Below are positions 9,838 through 50,793 of a DNA stretch of 64,000 nt, piece by piece. The translations under genes and the position numbers were made by a program. The stretch is from Syntrophomonadaceae bacterium. Its GTDB lineage: Bacteria > Bacillota > Ch66 > Ch109. The stretch lies in assembly GCA_012519455.1 (NCBI GenBank), contig JAAYQE010000101.1:1636-65635 (forward strand), given 5' to 3'. A model generated the notes under the pieces. That model was not told the DNA's origin. It did not search any database and worked only from the letters and a program-made list of their open reading frames with translations. Position 1 is the stretch's first letter. The number at the start of each line of letters is the position of its first letter.

Positions 9838-10665
9838 TTGCGCGTTGATCTACATATTCATACTACGGCTTCTGATGGCACAAGTACTCCACAACAAGTA
9901 GTCCAAAAAGCCCGTGATTATGGTCTAAAAGCAATCGCAATCACTGATCATGACGAGGTGAGCGGAATCCCCTTGGCCCAAATAGAGGGCGAGAGTTTAG
10001 GGGTAGAAGTTATTCCCGGGATTGAAATTAATACCGAATTTGAAAAAAGGGAAGTACACGTTTTAGGTTATTTTATTGATTATAACCATGCCGGACTACA
10101 ACAAAAATTGACCGAGCTTAAAAACGCCCGATTAATTCGAATTGAAAAGATTATTAAACGTTTAAACAATTTAGGGATTATGGTTGATTTTAATCGAGTT
10201 AAAGAACTCGCCGGTGATGGTTCGATTGGACGGCCACACATTGGTATGGCGCTGATTGAAAAAGGCTATATAGGTTCAGTTCAAGAGGCCTTTAATCGTT
10301 TTATTGGCTATGGTAAACCGGCCTATGTCCCTCGAGATAAAATCGATCCTTTGGAAGCGGTAGGAATTATTCGGGCTGCTAAGGGAGTGGCGGTACTGGC
10401 TCATCCCGGTTTGGCAGAACGAGATCATTTAATACCCCTATTAGCGAAAAAAGAGTTACAAGGGCTAGAAGTATATTACCCGGAGCATAACCCTGAGATG
10501 GTTAAGAAATATCTAGCCTTAGCCCAACGATTAGCCTTAGTAGCCACGGGAGGCTCTGATTACCATGGTTCCGAGCTGGTTTACCGAGCTGATTTGGGTG
10601 AAGTTACCGTTGCCTATCAAGTGGTAGAAGATTTACGCCGGCGTTGCCCGGTTCAAAAAGGCTGA
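9838..10665 (+). CDS. PHP-domain phosphoesterase (TrpH/YcdX-like)
   Basis: MRVDLHIHTTASDG polymerase/histidinol-phosphatase N-terminal motif. TTG start. Confidence 0.8.
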   Translation: MRVDLHIHTTASDGTSTPQQVVQKARDYGLKAIAITDHDEVSGIPLAQIEGESLGVEVIPGIEINTEFEKREVHVLGYFIDYNHAGLQQKLTELKNARLIRIEKIIKRLNNLGIMVDFNRVKELAGDGSIGRPHIGMALIEKGYIGSVQEAFNRFIGYGKPAYVPRDKIDPLEAVGIIRAAKGVAVLAHPGLAERDHLIPLLAKKELQGLEVYYPEHNPEMVKKYLALAQRLALVATGGSDYHGSELVYRADLGEVTVAYQVVEDLRRRCPVQKG

Positions 10666-13899: not shown

Positions 13900-14439
13900 A
13901 TGTTATTTAACTTGAAAAAAATCAGGAAAAGGGTAATCGATTGGGGACAAACCCGTTGGAGAAAACTACTCCGAACGGAAGCTTATCCCCTCTCGGAAAA
14001 ACCTGGCCGTTTGGCCCGGAAGCTAGATTACTGGGGCGGTCGATTAATCCTATTGGGTGTGATTTTTCTAATCTTAACGCAACTAAATTTAAGCCTTAAG
14101 ACAACCGGGTTGGCTGCAGTTGGGCTTGGGTTAGGTTTACATCTTAGCCTCAAAACAGGAACGCCAAAACTATTTTTAAGGCGTTTAAGGTCACGAGTAC
14201 AACCTACGGCAGAAGTAACAACGAACCTGGCACCGAACGGAAGGCAGAGAAAAAGACTCGGCCGCTGGCGCGGAGCGGTAGGCATTGGTTTAGGCTTGAT
14301 CGGGCTAGGAGCAATTTGCGGTGGAGCTTGGGGATGGTATTTTATGTTCTTGGGCCTGATTAATCTAGGTTTAGCCGGTGCTTTTGTTTGGGGAGAACGA
14401 CAGATTACTTCGTTTACACCACCAGATCCACAAAAATAA
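13900..14439 (+). CDS. hypothetical membrane protein (basic N-terminus, Gly-rich TM segments)
   Basis: Intact 179-aa ORF with an RBS (GGGAGGAGG). Confidence 0.45.
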   Translation: MLFNLKKIRKRVIDWGQTRWRKLLRTEAYPLSEKPGRLARKLDYWGGRLILLGVIFLILTQLNLSLKTTGLAAVGLGLGLHLSLKTGTPKLFLRRLRSRVQPTAEVTTNLAPNGRQRKRLGRWRGAVGIGLGLIGLGAICGGAWGWYFMFLGLINLGLAGAFVWGERQITSFTPPDPQK

Positions 14440-14445
14440 ACAATA

Positions 14446-14490
14446 ATAATAAAAAGTAGAACAGGATTTTCCTGTTCTACTTTTTGTTAT
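14446..14490. terminator. bidirectional terminator shared by two convergent genes
   Basis: AAAAA-GTAGAACAGG-ATTTT-CCTGTTCTAC-TTTTT. Confidence 0.6.
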
Positions 14491-14683
14491 TATTCTCTGC
14501 CACTTTGTTTAGATCTTCCATCAGTTGGTCGATATTGACACCATGAACTTGAGCACCCTGCTCAACACTCTCAAAGAGCGATCCCCCTCAGCCAACACAA
14601 CGAAGCCCGTGTTTGGCAAAAACCCTTAGCGATTCAGGGTATTTTTCCACTACATCTTTAATGATCGTGTTCTTGGTAATCAA
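14477..14683 (-). CDS. DUF1858-like small redox protein with an in-frame TGA at the second Cys position of its CxxC motif (candidate selenoprotein)
   Basis: The minus-strand ORF reads LITKNTIIKDVVEKYPESLRVFAKHGLRCVG[TGA]GGSLFESVEQGAQVHGVNIDQLMEDLNKVAENNNKK. The TGA is at 14588-14590. RBS AAGGGGG lies 8 nt before the TTG start, with a TATAAT upstream and a terminator downstream. A hairpin UUGAGCA-GGG-UGCUCAA lies ~22 nt 3' of the UGA. Confidence 0.4.
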
Positions 14684-14770
14684 TAATTAAACCCCCTTAA
14701 CCGTAAATTTTTTGGATATATGTCCACCTTTTGGGGTTATTATATTATACCCCAGCTTCGAGTAAAATAC

Positions 14771-14805: not shown

Positions 14806-14994
14806 TTAACGAGAATCGGGGTAAGGTGACTGGAGATCACGTTGAGCTCTTTGGATAGCTAAAGTAATCAAATTACCGCACTGACGAGACGTCACTCCAC
14901 CCCATCCCTCAGTACGGACAATATGATCTACTCCTAGCTCCTGAGCCAGCTCATATTTGAGCGCCTCGGACATGACACCCCGTTTTCTAGCCAT
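14806..14994 (-). CDS. alpha/beta-type small acid-soluble spore protein
   Basis: MARKRGVMSEALKYELAQELGV ... EGWGGVTSRQCGNLITLAIQRAQ matches the two conserved SASP blocks. RBS AAGGAGG lies 6 nt before the second in-frame ATG, at 14994. Confidence 0.8.
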   Translation of the reverse strand: MARKRGVMSEALKYELAQELGVDHIVRTEGWGGVTSRQCGNLITLAIQRAQRDLQSPYPDSR

Positions 14995-19171: not shown

Positions 19172-20542
19172 GTGAGAGTGATTTATGTGTTAGGATACGG
19201 GCAACAAACGTATAAGATCTTATCCTATGGTTGTCAGGGCAATCAGCGAGACTCCGAAACTCTAGCCGGTTTGTTGGAAAATTTAGGATATGAACCAGCT
19301 CATGATATTGACGATGCAGATCTTATTATTTTAAATACCTGTTGTGTTCGACATACCGTAGAAAATCGTATCTACGGAAAGTTGGGAGAACTTAAATATT
19401 TAAAACGCAATAACCCCTATTTAGTAATTGGCGTCTGTGGTTGTATGCCTCAACAAAAGGAAGCGGCGGAAAGGTTATATAAACGCGCTCCCCATATTGA
19501 TATTCTCTTTGGTACCCATAACCTTCACCGATTACCGGAATTACTTGAACGAAATCGAGCTACGCGTAGACAGGTTATTGATATTTGGGAGCGGGAAGAA
19601 GATAAAATCGTAGAGCATCTTCCGGTGGTACGAGCCCCTGGTATACGGGCTTATATTAACATTATGTACGGTTGTGACAATTTCTGTAGTTACTGTATTG
19701 TTCCTTATGTCCGTGGTCGAGAGAGAAGTCGACAATCTAAAGAAATCCTGGCGGAAGCACAAGCCGCAATAGATCAGGGTTATAAATAGATAATGCTCTT
19801 AGGTCAAAACGTCAATTCTTATGGAAAAGGTTTAGAAGGAGATCTCGATTTTGCCGATTTACTTACGGAGCTAGACCAAATTAAGGGGATTGAAAGAATT
19901 CGCTATATGACCTCCCATCCTAAAAACTTTACTTCAAAAATCATTAAAGCCATTGCTCAATCCCGCCATGTTTGCGAACATTTTCATTTACCGGTTCAGG
20001 CCGGTGGAAATCGGGTACTAAGATGGATGAATCGAGGATATACCCGAGAGCAGTATATAGATTTAGTTCAAGAAGTACGGGAAACGGTACCAACGTGCAG
20101 TGTAACCACCGATATTATTGTTGGTTTTCCGCAGGAAACCGAAGGCTGTTTTAGTCAAACGCTAGAATTAATGGAATCAATTAGATTTGACGCAGCTTAT
20201 ACTTTTCTTTACTCTCCACGCTCCGGAACACCGGCCTTTAGAATGCCGGATAACGTACCCATAGAAGAAAAAAAGAAACACTTAGGCCAGTTAATGAATG
20301 TGCAAAATAGAATAAGTCTAGAAATAAACCGAGAGTTAATTGGCAAGAGGGTAGAAATTCTCGTAGAAGGGACTAGTAAAACTAACCCCGATCGGCTTAC
20401 TGGACGTACGCGAACGAACAAAATCGTCATCTTTGATGGCCCTTTGGATTTAACCGGCCAATTAGTAGAAGTAGTAATTACTGAGGCCCAAACTTGGAAT
20501 TTGGTGGGAGAACTAAGCACCTCCGGTCCAGAAAAAAATTAA
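19172..20542 (+). CDS. miaB: tRNA-i6A37 methylthiotransferase MiaB, interrupted by a single in-frame TAG (19787-19789)
   Basis: N-terminal MTTase domain, radical SAM domain and TRAM domain are all present and in one frame. The reading is ...AAIDQGYK-TAG-IMLLGQNVNSYG, where the family has GYKEITLLGQNVN, so GAG has become TAG. The likely start is GTG 19178. Confidence 0.75.
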
Positions 20543-31875: not shown

Positions 31876-31938
31876 TTTTCACTTTGATTTAGATTATTGA
31901 CAATTAGCCCATAAGCATAATTAAGGTTGGTTTTTTTA

Positions 31939-31972
31939 CCCGGCAATTCTTTCTTGCCGGGTTTTGTTTTTT
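31939..31972 (+). terminator. rho-independent terminator after hfq
   Basis: CCCGGCAA-TTCTTTC-TTGCCGGG followed by TTTTGTTTTTT. Confidence 0.7.
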
Positions 31973-32009
31973 AACCGGCTTTTTTTATTCATTTTTCTAT
32001 CGGGTTGCC

Positions 32010-32862
32010 TTGGATCATGTGTTTCGTCCGGATCGAGCCGACCGGATTAAGCATCGGTTGTTACACAAACTAGCTTATTATGAAACGCAATTCGGCGTAG
32101 AAGGTTGCGTAGGCTGCGGACGCTGTGTTACTTCCTGCATTGTTAAGATTGACCCGGTAGAAGTAGTTAGTAAACTAAAAGAAGGAAGTGAGGCAGCGAA
32201 ATCGATAATGCGTTTTCACCCTCATGCGGAAAAAAGATGTCCCAGCGAAAATCCTTATGTTTCGTTTCCAGCGGTTATCAAAGCCATAAAACAGCAAACC
32301 GGAGATACGAATACTTATACTTTAGCTTTTACCGACGAGCAATTACAAGCAAAGTATACCTTTGAACCGGGTGCTTTTAATATGATTAATGTATATGGTA
32401 TTGGCGAAGCCCCCATTTCGATTAGCTCTGGTGCGGATGAAAAAAGTAGTTTTGAACATACGATCCGCGCGGTGATACGACGAGGTCCCAGAATTAGTGC
32501 AGCGTATGATCCTGGTTGATGCAGTAAAAAGTGGACTTGCTCCTGGAACCGTACAGCGCATAGAAATTTTATCCAACCCAAAAGAGCGTTTTTCGGTTAA
32601 CTGGCAGGGGGCAGAATTAACCGATTTTTTTCCGTCACCAAGGTGGTCCTTAACCGCGCATGGCCTGGGGATTATCGAAACCCTGGAATTAGCTCGGTTG
32701 ACCCATCGCTTACCCGCCCAAATAGTATTGATTGGTATTGAAATTGAATGTGAGGAAAATTTTCGCATAGAGTTAAGCCGTGAAGTGGAAAAAGCAATCC
32801 CACTCGCAGCTGATGCCGTACAGAAGGAAATCCAAATTATCTTAAAAAATATTTATAGCTAG
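32010..32862 (+). pseudogene. decayed hydrogenase/sulfhydrogenase operon remnant: ferredoxin-like beta-subunit C-terminus, truncated gamma (FAD/NAD-binding) subunit N-terminus, and 5'-truncated hydrogenase maturation protease
   Basis: CVGCGRCVTSC 4Fe-4S motif at the end of a subunit. ENPYVS...FEPGAFNMINVYGIGEAPISISS matches a gamma-subunit N-terminus, which then stops after ~110 aa. An overlapping frame encodes only the C-terminal two-thirds of a HycI/HybD-like protease (SLTAHGLG...IVLIGIEIE). No large or small hydrogenase subunit is present. Confidence 0.55.
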
Positions 32863-32890
32863 TCCTTACGTTACCAAGAACCGGGCATCA

Positions 32891-46617: not shown

Positions 46618-48093
46618 TTAATCACAACGAAGTAAACTTTCCGCCAAGCGGTAGTCAACAATTTTTTTATCCCGGATAACGATACTGTTAAAAAGAGTTC
46701 TTAATGCCTCACGAATTAAGGGCAAATCGCCGTTCCTCCACAGCCAGAGCAATTGCTTCGCTTCTTCTTGCATCAAGCCTTCCACCTCCGCCGGCAGCCC
46801 TTGCCCCACACGATTTCTTTCGGCCGCCGCCAAGCTTGCCCGCTCCCGATCGATTCTTTTCCGAGCCAGTTCAAGATCTTTTTCCGTAATTAGATGGTTT
46901 TCAAAAGCCTGAATTTGACGTTGAAATTTCCGGTCAAGGGCCATTTTCCGGCGCTTAAAAGCTTCTTCTTGAATCCGCATCGCCATCGTTATTTCTTCCA
47001 TGGGTACCGCACAAAGCCCCTCGGCTAACTTTTCTAAAACTTTAAAGGCCTGTGCTTCTGCGTCTTCGATAAAAATATAGTTAAAGCGACAACGGCCTTT
47101 TTTTTGATATTCCTGGCATACAAAAATTTTCCGTATTTTATGCGGACCTTTACTGCTATAAGGACGGCTAATCATTTTCGCCCCACAATAAGCACAAATT
47201 AAAAGGCCGGATAAACGGTGTTTAGCTTGCCTCTGGCCACCCTTGGGCAAGGACCGGGTAATACGAGCCTGTATCGCATTCCATTGTTCCTCAGTTAAAA
47301 TCGGAGGGTGGGCTTGTTCTTTAACTACCCATTTTTCCGGATCCCGCCAACAGATCTGGCCCCTTTTATCGAGGTAGCGCCGATTCCAAATTAGTTTGCC
47401 GGTATAAAGTTCGTTGGTTAGCATCTGCCGGATGGTGGAGGAACTCCAAAACGCTCCCTTACGAGTGCATACCTTAGATTCATTGAGCCATTGGGCAATA
47501 GCTCGGTATCCATACCCCAAAAGAAACATATCCGCTGCTTTCGATACCCAGGCCGCCTCTTCAGCTACGATCTGCAGGTTTTGATGCTGATCAAATTGAT
47601 AACCAAAAGGAGGTACGGCTAGATAGCGTTTCTTTTTATCCGCTAATTCGAACATCCCGGATTTTACGCGGGCCGCAATCATCGATCTTTCAAACTCGGC
47701 AAAAGCCGCAAGGATTTGCAGCACCATGCGGCCCATAGGCGTAGAAGTATCAAAATTTTGCGAAGCACAGATATAAGTCGTGTTATGTTTTTCACATAGT
47801 TCAACAAATTGGAGCATATCTAAAAGATTGCGGGACAAACGGTCTACAGCTATGGTTAATACCACGGATACTTTTCCCTGTTTAATGAGTCGAAGAAGCT
47901 GCTTCAGGGCGGGACGATTCATGTTTTTAGCCGATTCACCTTCATCCGCAAAAATAGAAAGGTTATTCCAACCTTGGAAACTAGCGTAATCCTTGAGCCG
48001 ATTAATTTGATTTTCCACGGAATAGCCTTCCCGGGCTTGTTCTTCGGTGGACACCCGAACGTATAAAGCCACTATTTTTTCCTGCTTTTCCAT
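46618..48093 (-). CDS. large serine recombinase (SpoIVCA/CisA/TnpX-like site-specific recombinase)
   Basis: N-terminal resolvase domain with catalytic Ser in ALYVRVSTEEQ. Recombinase domain. Zinc-ribbon CAYCGAKM...C and C-terminal coiled coil. 491 aa, intact. Its 3' end is 60 nt from the left junction. Confidence 0.9.
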   Translation of the reverse strand: MEKQEKIVALYVRVSTEEQAREGYSVENQINRLKDYASFQGWNNLSIFADEGESAKNMNRPALKQLLRLIKQGKVSVVLTIAVDRLSRNLLDMLQFVELCEKHNTTYICASQNFDTSTPMGRMVLQILAAFAEFERSMIAARVKSGMFELADKKKRYLAVPPFGYQFDQHQNLQIVAEEAAWVSKAADMFLLGYGYRAIAQWLNESKVCTRKGAFWSSSTIRQMLTNELYTGKLIWNRRYLDKRGQICWRDPEKWVVKEQAHPPILTEEQWNAIQARITRSLPKGGQRQAKHRLSGLLICAYCGAKMISRPYSSKGPHKIRKIFVCQEYQKKGRCRFNYIFIEDAEAQAFKVLEKLAEGLCAVPMEEITMAMRIQEEAFKRRKMALDRKFQRQIQAFENHLITEKDLELARKRIDRERASLAAAERNRVGQGLPAEVEGLMQEEAKQLLWLWRNGDLPLIREALRTLFNSIVIRDKKIVDYRLAESLLRCD

Positions 48094-50123: not shown

Positions 50124-50793
50124 CTTTAAAGGTAATCCGGGAACAGGCAAAACAACCGTTGCGCGTTTAGTGGGAAAACTATTCAAAGAAATAGGGGTGT
50201 TACAAAAGGGGCACCTAGTTGAAGTCGAACGCGCCGATCTAGTTGGCGAATACATCGGACACACCGCACAAAAAACACGGGACCAGGTAAAAAGGGCCCT
50301 TGGGGGTATCTTGTTTATAGATGAAGCCTATTCCTTAGCGCGAGGAGGAGAACGCGATTTTGGTAAGGAAAGCATCGATGCCTTAGTCAAATCCATGGAA
50401 GATCATAAGGAAAATTTAATTTTGATTTTAGCCGGATACCGTGATGAGATGGAAAGGTTTATTCAGAGTAATCCCGGGGTACGCTCACGTTTCCCCATCC
50501 AAATCGATTTTCCCGATTACACCGTGCATGAATTAATGCAGATCGCGGACCTCATGTTAAGCCAGCGTCAATACTGTCTTTCATCGGAAGCCCGGCTTGA
50601 ATTACAACGGATATTAGAAAAGCAGGTGCGGGAGGGAATGGGGCATAACGGTAATGCCCGTCTGGTGCGCAATCTAATTGAACGCGGGATCCGGCGCCAA
50701 GCGGTCCGCTTAATCAGTCAAAAGGAAATAAAGCGGGAGGACCTAGTTTTAATCCGGCGGCAAGACCTGGAACCCCATGCCGAAGACAGCTAA
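50124..50793 (+). CDS. spoVK: spoVK 3' segment (from the Walker A motif NPGTGKTT to the C-terminus)
   Basis: FKGNPGTGKTTVARLVGKLFKEIGVLQKGHLVEVERADLVGEYIGHTAQKTRD..., Walker B ILFIDEAY and a sensor region are all collinear with B. subtilis SpoVK. No start codon or RBS of its own at the junction. Confidence 0.85.

What the first reader, a model, noticed from the sequence alone, without database searches (positions are those of the whole stretch)
14477..14683. In-frame TGA replacing the second Cys of a CxxC motif in a small DUF1858-like redox protein: candidate selenoprotein
The minus-strand ORF has a good RBS (AAGGGGG-8 nt-TTG), an upstream TATAAT and a downstream intrinsic terminator. It reads ...KYPESLRVFAKHGLRCVG-TGA-GGSLFESVEQGAQVHGVNIDQLMEDL... 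Homologous small redox-disulfide proteins (the hybrid-cluster-associated DUF1858 type) carry Cys-x-Gly-Cys at this position. A UGA aligned with a redox Cys is the classic bacterial selenocysteine signature. A 7-bp hairpin with a GGG loop lies ~22 nt downstream of the UGA, where a bacterial SECIS would be expected. The ORF track misses it because it stops at TGA.
Basis: partly seen in the sequence, partly recalled or inferred. Interest (0 to 1): 0.7.

Follow-up and report, generated by a model that had tools for sequence, protein, structure and literature searches.

The report
Unannotated DUF1858 selenoprotein gene

Summary
Window 14683-14477 (minus strand) is one 68-codon reading frame with TGA at codon 32. 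Read through, it is a full-length DUF1858 / TIGR03980 protein. The TGA falls on the second Cys of an invariant C-x-G-C motif.

Four results argue for selenocysteine rather than a pseudogene:
- The TGA is kept in 11 homologous genes, eight of them close orthologues. Six of those eight loci show the same guaB-side neighbourhood; the other two contigs are too short to show it.
- The frame after the TGA is under purifying selection.
- Codons 36-45 are frozen at synonymous sites (Fisher p = 4e-5).
- A 6-7 bp hairpin with a G-rich loop 24-29 nt after the codon fits the published bacterial SECIS model. It is present in 11 of 11 TGA forms, with four different stem sequences, and in 0 of 29 Cys forms.

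A related MAG with a TGA form also carries selD with its own in-frame TGA. The Sec machinery of the window's own organism cannot be seen in 64 kb.

"DUF1858 domain-containing protein, CxxU" is already listed in selenoprotein reviews, so this is a new, unannotated member of a known family. Its biochemical function is unknown. A Cys/Sec redox couple on a ScdA_N-like all-helical fold is inferred.

The parts
14739..14766 (-). Sigma-70-like promoter candidate TTTACT-16 nt-TATAAT upstream of the gene.
   Evidence: Consensus scan gives 10 of 12 matches. One site is no more than shuffles give, so it is only suggestive.
14692..14698 (-). Shine-Dalgarno AAGGGGG, 8 nt before the TTG start codon.
   Evidence: Read from the sequence. 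The orthologues carry AAGGAGG or GGAGG at the same distance before TTG or ATG.
14477..14683 (-). Complete coding sequence: TTG start, 67 sense codons including UGA at codon 32, TAG stop at 14479-14477. The product is a 67-residue DUF1858 protein with the motif C29-V-G-U32-G-G.
   Evidence: Translation. Pfam PF08984 E = 2.2e-19 over profile 1-59 of 59. TIGR03980 80.7 bits against cutoff 44.95. dN/dS after the TGA is 0.08-0.47.
14588..14590 (-). In-frame UGA, the proposed selenocysteine codon 32.
   Evidence: Aligned with an invariant Cys in 119 homologues. TGA is kept at this codon in 11 homologous genes.
14549..14565 (-). SECIS candidate: 7-bp hairpin UUGAGCA-GGG-UGCUCAA, starting 22 nt after the UGA, with its loop 29 nt after it.
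   Evidence: A hairpin of this geometry is found in 11 of 11 TGA forms and 0 of 29 Cys forms. It fits the bSECIS model quoted in PMC13188914. Energy of the hairpin alone is about -7 kcal/mol.
14549..14578 (-). Codons 36-45 (LFESVEQGAQ): a block in which synonymous sites are frozen. It includes a small CUCU-UUG-AGAG hairpin (14578-14568) and the SECIS hairpin.
   Evidence: 7 of 9 amino-acid-invariant degenerate codons are nucleotide-invariant here, against 1 of 26 elsewhere in the gene. Fisher p = 4e-5.
14451..14485 (-). Intrinsic terminator overlapping the TAG stop. It is bidirectional and also serves the convergent 179-aa gene 13900-14439.
   Evidence: 16-pair stem followed by a T run.
14806..14994 (-). 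Alpha/beta-type small acid-soluble spore protein (SASP) gene directly upstream on the same strand, with its own terminator at 14791-14770. It is a conserved neighbour of the Sec-form gene.
   Evidence: Pfam SASP on the identical contig L036. Terminator. An SASP gene is found upstream in 8 of 11 Sec-form loci and next to none of 29 Cys-form loci.

Best explanation
This is a functional, monocistronic selenoprotein gene.

**Recoding.** The ribosome starts at TTG 14683. At UGA codon 32 it is served by SelB carrying Sec-tRNA(Sec), recruited by a SECIS hairpin inside the coding sequence (UUGAGCA-GGG-UGCUCAA, loop 29 nt after the UGA). It then continues to the TAG at 14479-14477.

**Product.** A 67-residue, all-helical DUF1858 / ScdA_N-fold protein. 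In the model of the Cys paralogue, Cys29 caps a short helix and the residue at position 32 sits in its first turn.

**How far each step is supported.**
- Shown: the reading frame, the Cys/Sec column, conservation of the TGA, selection on the downstream frame, the SECIS-like element, and family membership.
- Inferred: that Sec is actually inserted in this organism.
- Inferred: that Cys29 and Sec32 form a reversible selenenylsulfide that makes the protein a small thiol/selenol redox or transfer protein.
- Weakly inferred from family context only: that the pathway concerns Fe-S or nitrosative stress. The ScdA/YtfE N-domain is homologous, and other DUF1858 genes sit in NO/nitrite regulons. The conserved SASP neighbour suggests a possible role in spores.
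For: **Family and the Cys/Sec column.**
- The read-through product is a full-length DUF1858 / TIGR03980 protein.
- The TGA aligns with the second Cys of C-x-G-C, and C29, G31 and C32 are invariant in 119 homologues.

**Conservation of the TGA.**
- TGA is at codon 32 in the window, L001-L004, L020, L021 and L039, and in three divergent genes L040-L042.
- Cys paralogues (L005, L006) exist in the MAG that also has the Sec form L004.
- In L001-L004 and L021 the gene sits at the same chromosomal position as in the window, between guaB and a radical-SAM/DegV/PhoU-like block. Flanking proteins are only 34-87% identical there, a divergence at which a pseudogene would have decayed.

**Selection on the downstream frame.**
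- Synonymous sites are saturated outside codons 36-45, yet dN is 0.08-0.30 downstream of the TGA.

**SECIS element.**
- Synonymous sites are frozen in codons 36-45, p = 4e-5.
- A hairpin fitting the bSECIS geometry occurs in 11 of 11 TGA forms, with four different stem sequences that include compensatory changes (A-U to G-C in L041). It occurs in 0 of 29 Cys forms.

**Other support.**
- The terminator follows the TAG, not the TGA.
- TGA is an ordinary stop for 7 of 55 large ORFs in the window, so the code is standard.
- Three independent assemblies carry the identical sequence.
- The related MAG Ch109 has selD with its own in-frame TGA (VKASG*AAKVGPG), plus yedE, yedF and a selenium-associated LysR regulator.
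- Syntrophomonas genomes from digesters encode Sec-containing formate dehydrogenases (PMC6687939).
- DUF1858 with a CxxU motif is a listed selenoprotein family.
- Fold: the AF2 model of the Cys paralogue has pLDDT 88 and matches 2K53 and 2K5E at TM 0.78-0.81, and the YtfE N-domain at 0.70-0.73.
Against: - No selA, selB, selD or tRNA-Sec is visible in the 64-kb window. The organism's Sec trait is therefore unverified.
- The same window holds other disrupted genes: miaB with an in-frame TAG, hydrogenase-operon remnants, and a truncated spoVK. In-frame stops are thus not rare in this genome.
- The hairpin alone is only -6.3 to -7.4 kcal/mol, just short of the -7.5 model threshold. The region's fold energy is not exceptional against shuffles.
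- No Rfam family matches.
- Covariation within the close clade is uninformative.
- No protein-level evidence exists, and no member of this family has been characterised biochemically.
Confidence: 0.85

Rival explanations
1. Nonsense-mutated pseudogene, or a gene for only the 31-residue N-terminal peptide. On this view the sequence after the TGA is untranslated.
For: - Gene callers stop at the TGA.
- The window has other genes with premature stops or truncations.
- The Sec machinery was not seen in the window.
Against: - The TGA is conserved in 11 genes.
- The downstream frame stays open to a shared stop and has low dN with saturated dS.
- The downstream half still matches the C-terminal half of the DUF1858 profile.
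- The terminator comes after the second stop.
- Five loci spanning the neighbourhood show orthologous synteny, with flanking proteins down to 34% identity.
Confidence: 0.03
2. The UGA is read through without selenocysteine. This could be by a near-cognate tRNA (Trp or Cys) helped by the downstream hairpin, or because the organism reads UGA as a sense codon.
For: - Some metagenome gene callers translated the homologues with TGA as Trp (P0013, P0131, P0196, P0243).
- The Sec machinery of this organism is unseen.
Against: - TGA ends 7 of 55 well-formed ORFs in the window, and table-11 ORFs are full length (RecA, MutS, MutL, IMPDH). The code is therefore standard.
- The replaced residue is an invariant Cys, the classic Cys/Sec pairing.
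- The hairpin matches the SelB-type SECIS model, not a generic read-through signal.
- A sister MAG with the same gene has a Sec-containing SelD.
Confidence: 0.05
3. A rival about function only; Sec is still inserted. On this view the Cys29/Sec32 pair is not a redox couple. It would be a ligand site for a metal, possibly together with the conserved Glu38, Glu41 and His47, or a carrier site for selenium or sulfur that is handed to other proteins.
For: - E38, Q42 and H47 are invariant and E41 nearly invariant, alongside C29 and C32.
- The fold is not a thioredoxin fold.
- The only close Cys paralogue lies inside a selenium-metabolism island with LysR_Sec_metab, YedF, SelD, an SclA-like desulfurase and YedE.
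- One divergent Sec form is followed by a CsoR-family metal/persulfide-type repressor gene.
Against: - NCBIfam names the family a redox disulfide domain.
- The ScdA/YtfE N-domain cysteines that align with this site behave as redox-active, disulfide-forming residues and are not needed for the di-iron site (PMC12412097, PMC9268430).
- The selenium-island context is a single instance. It is shared with a duplicated serine-dehydratase block (L006), which could be the real partner.
Confidence: 0.3

Closest known systems
DUF1858 domain-containing selenoprotein family (PF08984, CxxU motif, example WP_012065717.1), listed in PMC9312934 and PMC13188914
   Same: Same Pfam domain, same CxxU motif, one Sec per protein, small stand-alone protein.
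   Different: The example sequence could not be retrieved, so it is unknown whether it belongs to the C-x-G-U-G-G subclade seen here. The window's gene and its orthologues are not annotated as full-length proteins in the searched collections.
TIGR03980 / 'hybrid cluster protein-associated redox disulfide' proteins (Cys forms), with NMR structures 2K53 and 2K5E
   Same: Full-length profile match. Invariant C-x-G-C column. All-helical fold, TM 0.78-0.81 for the paralogue model.
   Different: Sec replaces the second Cys. It is followed by G-G, whereas 118 of the 120 best database hits have another dipeptide there, most often [MQA]-A; the two G-G hits are P0005 and the TGA form P0013. No hcp gene was found in the 64-kb window.
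N-terminal ScdA_N domain of RIC / ScdA / YtfE di-iron proteins
   Same: Homologous helical domain with a Cys motif in the helix 2-3 loop. Sec32-G-G aligns with ScdA Cys31-G-G (PMC9268430). The structural match has TM 0.70-0.73.
   Different: There is no hemerythrin-like di-iron domain. The motif is C-x-G-U rather than C-C. The PF04405 score of 22.6 bits is below the 32.5 cutoff.
Bacterial SECIS elements (consensus model of Zhang and Gladyshev as quoted in PMC13188914; E. coli fdhF type)
   Same: An in-ORF hairpin just downstream of the UGA. It has a 6-7 bp upper stem, a 3-5 nt loop with G-G at the start, and its loop 28-29 nt from the UGA, or 24 nt in the divergent forms.
   Different: The hairpin alone is slightly weaker than the -7.5 kcal/mol threshold. 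No Rfam model matches. SelB binding is untested.
CxxU redox selenoproteins such as SelW-like and AhpD-like proteins
   Same: Sec is in the C-terminal position of a CxxC-type motif at the start of a helix (PMC2398784 Table 2; model).
   Different: A different fold: all-helical DUF1858, not thioredoxin-like or AhpD-like.

Membership tests
DUF1858 (PF08984) / TIGR03980 prismane_assoc | Profile score above the curated cutoff over the whole domain. | tested here: met
   PF08984 69.7 bits against 32.2, profile 1-59 of 59. TIGR03980 80.7 bits against 44.95, profile 1-58 of 58. Sec was written as Cys for the search.
DUF1858 (PF08984) / TIGR03980 prismane_assoc | Conserved C-x-x-C (C-x-G-C) motif. | tested here: met
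   C29-V-G-U32. C29, G31 and C32 are invariant in 119 homologues.
DUF1858 (PF08984) / TIGR03980 prismane_assoc | Small all-helical fold as in 2K53 and 2K5E. | tested here: met
   Tested on the 66%-identical Cys paralogue P0005, not on the window protein itself. pLDDT 88, TM 0.78 and 0.81. The sequence matches 2K53 at E = 2.9e-11.
DUF1858 (PF08984) / TIGR03980 prismane_assoc | Genomic association with a hybrid cluster protein (hcp) gene. This gives the family its name but is not required by the model. | tested here: not met
   No hcp among the window's large ORFs. The neighbours are guaB, a 179-aa membrane protein, an SASP gene, radical SAM, DegV and a PhoU-like gene.
Bacterial selenoprotein gene | In-frame UGA aligned with Cys in homologues (Cys/Sec pair). 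| tested here: met
Bacterial selenoprotein gene | UGA and the downstream reading frame conserved among orthologues, under purifying selection. | tested here: met
   11 TGA forms. dN/dS 0.08-0.47 after the TGA. Synteny.
Bacterial selenoprotein gene | SECIS hairpin: 4-16 bp stem, 3-9 nt loop with G in its first two positions, 16-37 nt after the UGA, MFE at or below -7.5 kcal/mol (PMC13188914). | tested here: met
   The geometry is met in 11 of 11 TGA forms and 0 of 29 Cys forms. The hairpin alone is -6.3 to -7.4 kcal/mol, which is borderline. The 47-nt region is -13.4 to -16.5 kcal/mol. bSECISearch itself was not available.
Bacterial selenoprotein gene | selA, selB, selD and tRNA-Sec present in the same genome. 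| not testable with these tools
   None in the 64-kb window, and the rest of the genome is not held. Indirect support: MAG Ch109, which carries the Sec form L004, has selD with an in-frame TGA plus yedE and yedF.
Bacterial selenoprotein gene | Selenium actually incorporated at the UGA position. | not testable with these tools
   Needs 75Se labelling or mass spectrometry.
RIC / ScdA / YtfE di-iron proteins | C-terminal hemerythrin-like di-iron four-helix bundle. | tested here: not met
   The protein is 67 residues and only the N-domain aligns. The equivalog scores of 15.8-35.8 bits are far below their cutoffs of 204-259. PF04405 scores 22.6 bits against a cutoff of 32.5.
Thioredoxin-fold CxxC/CxxU oxidoreductases | Thioredoxin fold (beta-alpha-beta ... 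beta-beta-alpha). | tested here: not met
   The model is all-helical and there are no Trx-fold hits in the PDB search.

The most novel reading that the evidence does not exclude
The C-x-G-[U/C]-G-G subclade may not be a generic 'redox disulfide' protein. It may be a spore-associated and/or selenium- or Fe-S-handling factor.

- **SASP link.** Its Sec form is kept as a tandem pair with an alpha/beta SASP gene in 8 of 11 Sec-form loci, including a lineage about 50% identical. None of the 29 Cys-form loci has an SASP gene within the sequence held.
- **Selenium-island link.** Its only close Cys paralogues sit beside Fe-S L-serine dehydratase genes. One of them lies inside a selD-yedF-yedE-LysR(Sec)-SclA selenium island.

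If real, this would be the first selenoprotein tied to the forespore or spore programme of anaerobic Bacillota, or a new component of selenium trafficking.
Probability: 0.12. Interest if true: 0.65.

Novelty: new member of a known kind. Interest (0 to 1): 0.38.

Why it matters
**Practical value.** This is a clean, well-supported example of a selenoprotein gene that standard gene callers miss. Some call nothing or a 31-residue stub; others mistranslate the codon as Trp. It adds a distinct, mostly Sec-containing subclade (C-x-G-U-G-G) from anaerobic-digester Bacillota to a family that is catalogued only as 'DUF1858, CxxU'.

**Value for SECIS work.** The 11 of 11 against 0 of 29 split of the hairpin between TGA and Cys forms gives a small test set for bacterial SECIS models in Bacillota.

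**Value for function.** Because Sec marks catalytic redox residues, the gene supports the view that the C-x-G-C site is the active site of the uncharacterised DUF1858 / ScdA_N domain. The same domain sits at the N-terminus of the RIC/ScdA/YtfE nitrosative-stress enzymes.

None of this changes the picture of selenoprotein biology.

Tried and rejected
- **Rfam.** At gathering thresholds on the whole window, and at E up to 10 on 14470-14700, no SECIS or other relevant family matched.
- **Thermodynamic significance.** The 76-nt post-UGA stretch is not significant against shuffles, z = 0.67.
- **Covariation within the close clade.** Nearly all pairs are invariant, so the shuffle controls say nothing for either fold.
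- **RNAalifold's long hairpin.** It starts at the UGA and pairs alignment columns 11-19 with 35-43. I considered it and set it aside. It is weak in L004 (-3.7 kcal/mol). Its pairs cannot form in the divergent Sec forms L040 and L041, by inspection of the sequences. The short hairpin, by contrast, is found in all 11.
- **Other selenoprotein candidates in the window.** A scan for ORF pairs joined by TGA gave only antisense noise. One further TGA at 32517 lies in a decayed hydrogenase-operon remnant.
- **Identifying the source genome.**
  - The GTDB representative scan found only relatives at or below 79% identity.
  - Exact-protein look-ups found only contigs of 10.8 kb or less from biogas and other metagenomes, or nothing.
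- **Selenium genes elsewhere.** tblastn with SelD, YedF, LysR and SclA from L005 against the window and all loci hit only L005.
- **A spurious hit.** The 2017-aa top hit of the representative search (P0121) is a repeat protein, not a relative.

Full report
**1. The observation**

On the minus strand, 14683-14477 reads LITKNTIIKDVVEKYPESLRVFAKHGLRCVG*GGSLFESVEQGAQVHGVNIDQLMEDLNKVAENNNKK*. The mechanical ORF list contains only the first 31 codons, 14588-14683.

- AAGGGGG lies 8 nt before the TTG start.
- A TTTACT-16-TATAAT site lies at 14766-14739.
- An intrinsic terminator at 14485-14451 overlaps the final TAG. There is none after the TGA.
- The 7-bp hairpin TTGAGCA-GGG-TGCTCAA is at 14565-14549, 22 nt after the TGA.

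The 360-nt region is 100% identical in three independent metagenome assemblies, one labelled biogas fermenter. The TGA is therefore not a sequencing error.

**2. What the frame encodes**

With Cys written for the TGA, the product matches Pfam DUF1858 over the whole profile (E = 2.2e-19, 69.7 bits against cutoff 32.2). It also matches NCBIfam TIGR03980, 'hybrid cluster protein-associated redox disulfide domain' (80.7 bits against 44.95). The halves before and after the TGA match the two halves of the Pfam profile separately.

The TGA falls on the second Cys of C-x-G-C. In an alignment of the 119 best database homologues, C29, G31 and C32 are invariant, as are F37, E38, Q42, G43 and H47.

Solved relatives are two structural-genomics NMR structures, 2K53 and 2K5E, and the N-terminal domain of ScdA. 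In the ScdA alignment, Sec32-G-G lines up with Cys31-G-G.

An AlphaFold model of the closest Cys-containing relative (P0005, 66% identical) is all-helical, with Cys29 capping a short helix at 30-34 (pLDDT 88). It superposes on 2K53 and 2K5E (TM 0.78 and 0.81) and on the YtfE N-domain (TM 0.70-0.73).

**3. Is the TGA decoded? Comparative evidence**

*More TGA forms.*
- A scan of one genome per species found 19 related loci. Four have TGA at exactly codon 32: L001 (a Bacillota MAG), L002 and L003 (Syntrophomonadaceae MAGs), and L004 (Bacillota MAG Ch109). All four continue in frame to a stop at the same place. Two paralogues in MAG Ch109 (L005, L006) have Cys.
- A metagenome scan added two more TGA forms, L020 and L021.
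- A database protein with 'W' at that column, P0013, proved to have TGA in its DNA, L039.

*Synteny.* In L001-L004 and L021 the gene sits at the same chromosomal position as in the window. It lies on the opposite strand between guaB plus a 179-aa membrane protein on one side and radical-SAM, DegV and PhoU-like genes on the other. Flanking proteins are 34-87% identical.

*Selection.* Between these orthologues, synonymous sites are saturated outside codons 36-45, while dN is 0.06-0.17 before the TGA and 0.08-0.30 after it. dN/dS is 0.08-0.47 where it can be defined. The part after the TGA is therefore maintained as protein.

*Genetic code.* TGA terminates 7 of 55 large ORFs in the window, and housekeeping genes are full length under table 11. 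The code is not reassigned.

**4. The SECIS**

Within the close clade, codons 36-45 (nt +10 to +39 after the UGA) are frozen. Here 7 of 9 amino-acid-invariant degenerate codons never vary, including Leu CTC and Ala GCT. Elsewhere in the gene only 1 of 26 does (Fisher p = 4e-5).

Two folds were compatible with that block:
- A long hairpin preferred by RNAalifold.

Covariation inside the clade could not separate them.

The exhaustive representative search then gave three more proteins with 'W' at the Sec column (P0131, P0196, P0243). All three have TGA in their DNA (L041, L040, L042).

I coded the published bacterial SECIS geometry from PMC13188914 as follows: a stem of at least 6 bp, a loop of 3-9 nt with G in its first two positions, and 16-37 nt from the codon. 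A scan with these rules finds such a hairpin in 11 of 11 TGA forms and in 0 of 29 Cys forms.

| Stem | Loop(s) | Loci |
|---|---|---|
| UUGAGCA / UGCUCAA (6 bp in L002, L003, L020) | GGG or AGGGC | window, L001-L004, L020, L021, L039 |
| UUGGGC / GCCCAA | AGGCA | L041 |
| GAGCAUU / AAUGCUU | GGU | L040 |
| AGCGUA / UACGCU | GGC | L042 |

The stems differ, with compensatory changes; for example A-U becomes G-C between the window and L041.

Three caveats apply:
- The hairpin alone is -6.3 to -7.4 kcal/mol. The 47-nt region folds at -13.4 to -16.5 kcal/mol.
- Its stability is not unusual against shuffles.
- Rfam has no matching model.

**5. Sec machinery**

The window has only tRNA-Gln and no selA, selB, selD, yedE or yedF. 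The organism's own machinery is thus unseen, and this is the main gap.

Indirect support comes from two sources:
- In MAG Ch109, which carries the Sec form L004, locus L005 holds a selenium island. It contains a selenium-associated LysR regulator, YedF, SelD with its own in-frame TGA (VKASG*AAKVGPG), an SclA-like desulfurase, two double-cubane reductases with an activase, and YedE.
- Syntrophomonas genomes from digesters are reported to encode Sec-containing formate dehydrogenases (PMC6687939).

**6. Mechanism and function**

*Shown.* This is a monocistronic small gene whose UGA is conserved with a SECIS-type hairpin. Its product belongs to DUF1858, with Sec in the invariant second Cys position.

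*Inferred.*
- SelB-dependent Sec insertion.
- A Cys29-Sec32 selenenylsulfide couple at the start of a short helix. This follows the redox-active, disulfide-forming cysteines of the homologous ScdA/YtfE N-domain (PMC12412097, PMC9268430).

*Pathway, known only by association.* ScdA and YtfE act in nitrite/NO and Fe-S chemistry. A DUF1858 gene is among the most strongly induced NnrR targets in Bradyrhizobium (PMC6710368). DrpB of Thermus nitrate respiration and some SufT proteins carry the domain.

A ligand or carrier role for metal, selenium or sulfur remains possible. E38, Q42 and H47 are invariant and E41 nearly so, and one paralogue sits in a selenium island.

**7. Comparison with what is known, and novelty**

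[quoted passage not shown] Both credit Zhang and Gladyshev 2008 and Peng et al. 2016. The kind is therefore known, by prediction only.

The following appears not to be recorded in what I could search:
- The C-x-G-U-G-G subclade. Of the 120 best database hits, 118 have another dipeptide after the second Cys, most often [MQA]-A, and only P0005 and the TGA form P0013 have G-G. The exhaustive representative search found a few more distant G-G forms (P0167, P0169, P0251, P0196, P0243).
- Its fixed position beside guaB.
- Its pairing with an SASP gene.

No full-length version of the window's protein or of its orthologues is in the protein collections searched.

**8. Verdict**

This is a genuine, unannotated selenoprotein gene, a new member of a known predicted family. 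Interest is moderate to low.

Noticed in passing
window 14806-14994 (-); L001 9683-9859, L002 2854-3033, L003 5137-5316, L004 9697-9858, L020 503-682, L039 2-64, L041 52-207: An alpha/beta-type SASP gene lies directly upstream, on the same strand, of the Sec-form DUF1858 gene in 8 of 11 Sec-form loci. These include a lineage only about 50% identical. tblastn found no SASP gene in the sequence held for any of the 29 Cys-form loci. This is a conserved gene pair that hints at a spore-related role.
   Followed up: partly
L005 6884-19019: A selenium-metabolism island in MAG Ch109. It holds LysR_Sec_metab, Fe-S L-serine dehydratase alpha and beta subunits, a Cys-form DUF1858 gene (10001-10204), YedF, SelD with its own in-frame TGA (VKASG*AAKVGPG), an SclA-like cysteine desulfurase, two double-cubane reductases with an activase, and YedE. 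L006 repeats the serine dehydratase plus DUF1858 block without the selenium genes.
   Followed up: partly
window 19172-20542 (+), stop at 19787-19789: miaB is split by an in-frame TAG (…IDQGYK*IMLLGQNV…). The two ORFs match MiaB profile positions 2-191 and 195-436. The orthologue in L001 is one intact ORF. This is probably a nonsense mutation or an assembly error, and no other assembly of this stretch was found.
   Followed up: partly
window 31900-32870 (+): Downstream of miaA and hfq lie remnants of a hydrogenase/sulfhydrogenase-type operon. The last 56 aa of an AsrA/ShyB-like subunit are fused to the first ~80 aa of a gamma/AsrB-like subunit. A frame change follows, and then a piece resembling a maturation protease. 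The TGA at 32517 is part of this decay and is not a Sec candidate.
   Followed up: partly
window 46618-48093 (-) and 50170-50793 (+): spoVK lacks about the first 61 profile residues. Similarity stops just before the Walker A motif GNPGTGKTT. A large serine recombinase (XisF/CcrB-like) lies 2 kb upstream. This could be a sporulation-gene intervening element. The 5' half of spoVK was not located.
   Followed up: no
P0013/L039, P0131/L041, P0196/L040, P0243/L042: Public metagenome gene calls translate the Sec TGA of these DUF1858 genes as Trp. Selenoprotein genes are thus hidden in protein databases as 'CxGW' variants. Searching for W at invariant Cys columns is a cheap way to find them.
   Followed up: yes
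L040 1380-1652 (+): A CsoR-family repressor gene (PF02583, metal- or persulfide-sensing type) follows the divergent Sec-form DUF1858 gene by 72 nt on the same strand.
   Followed up: no
L005 3875-5122 (-): A group II intron reverse transcriptase/maturase gene lies next to the selenium island of MAG Ch109.
   Followed up: no
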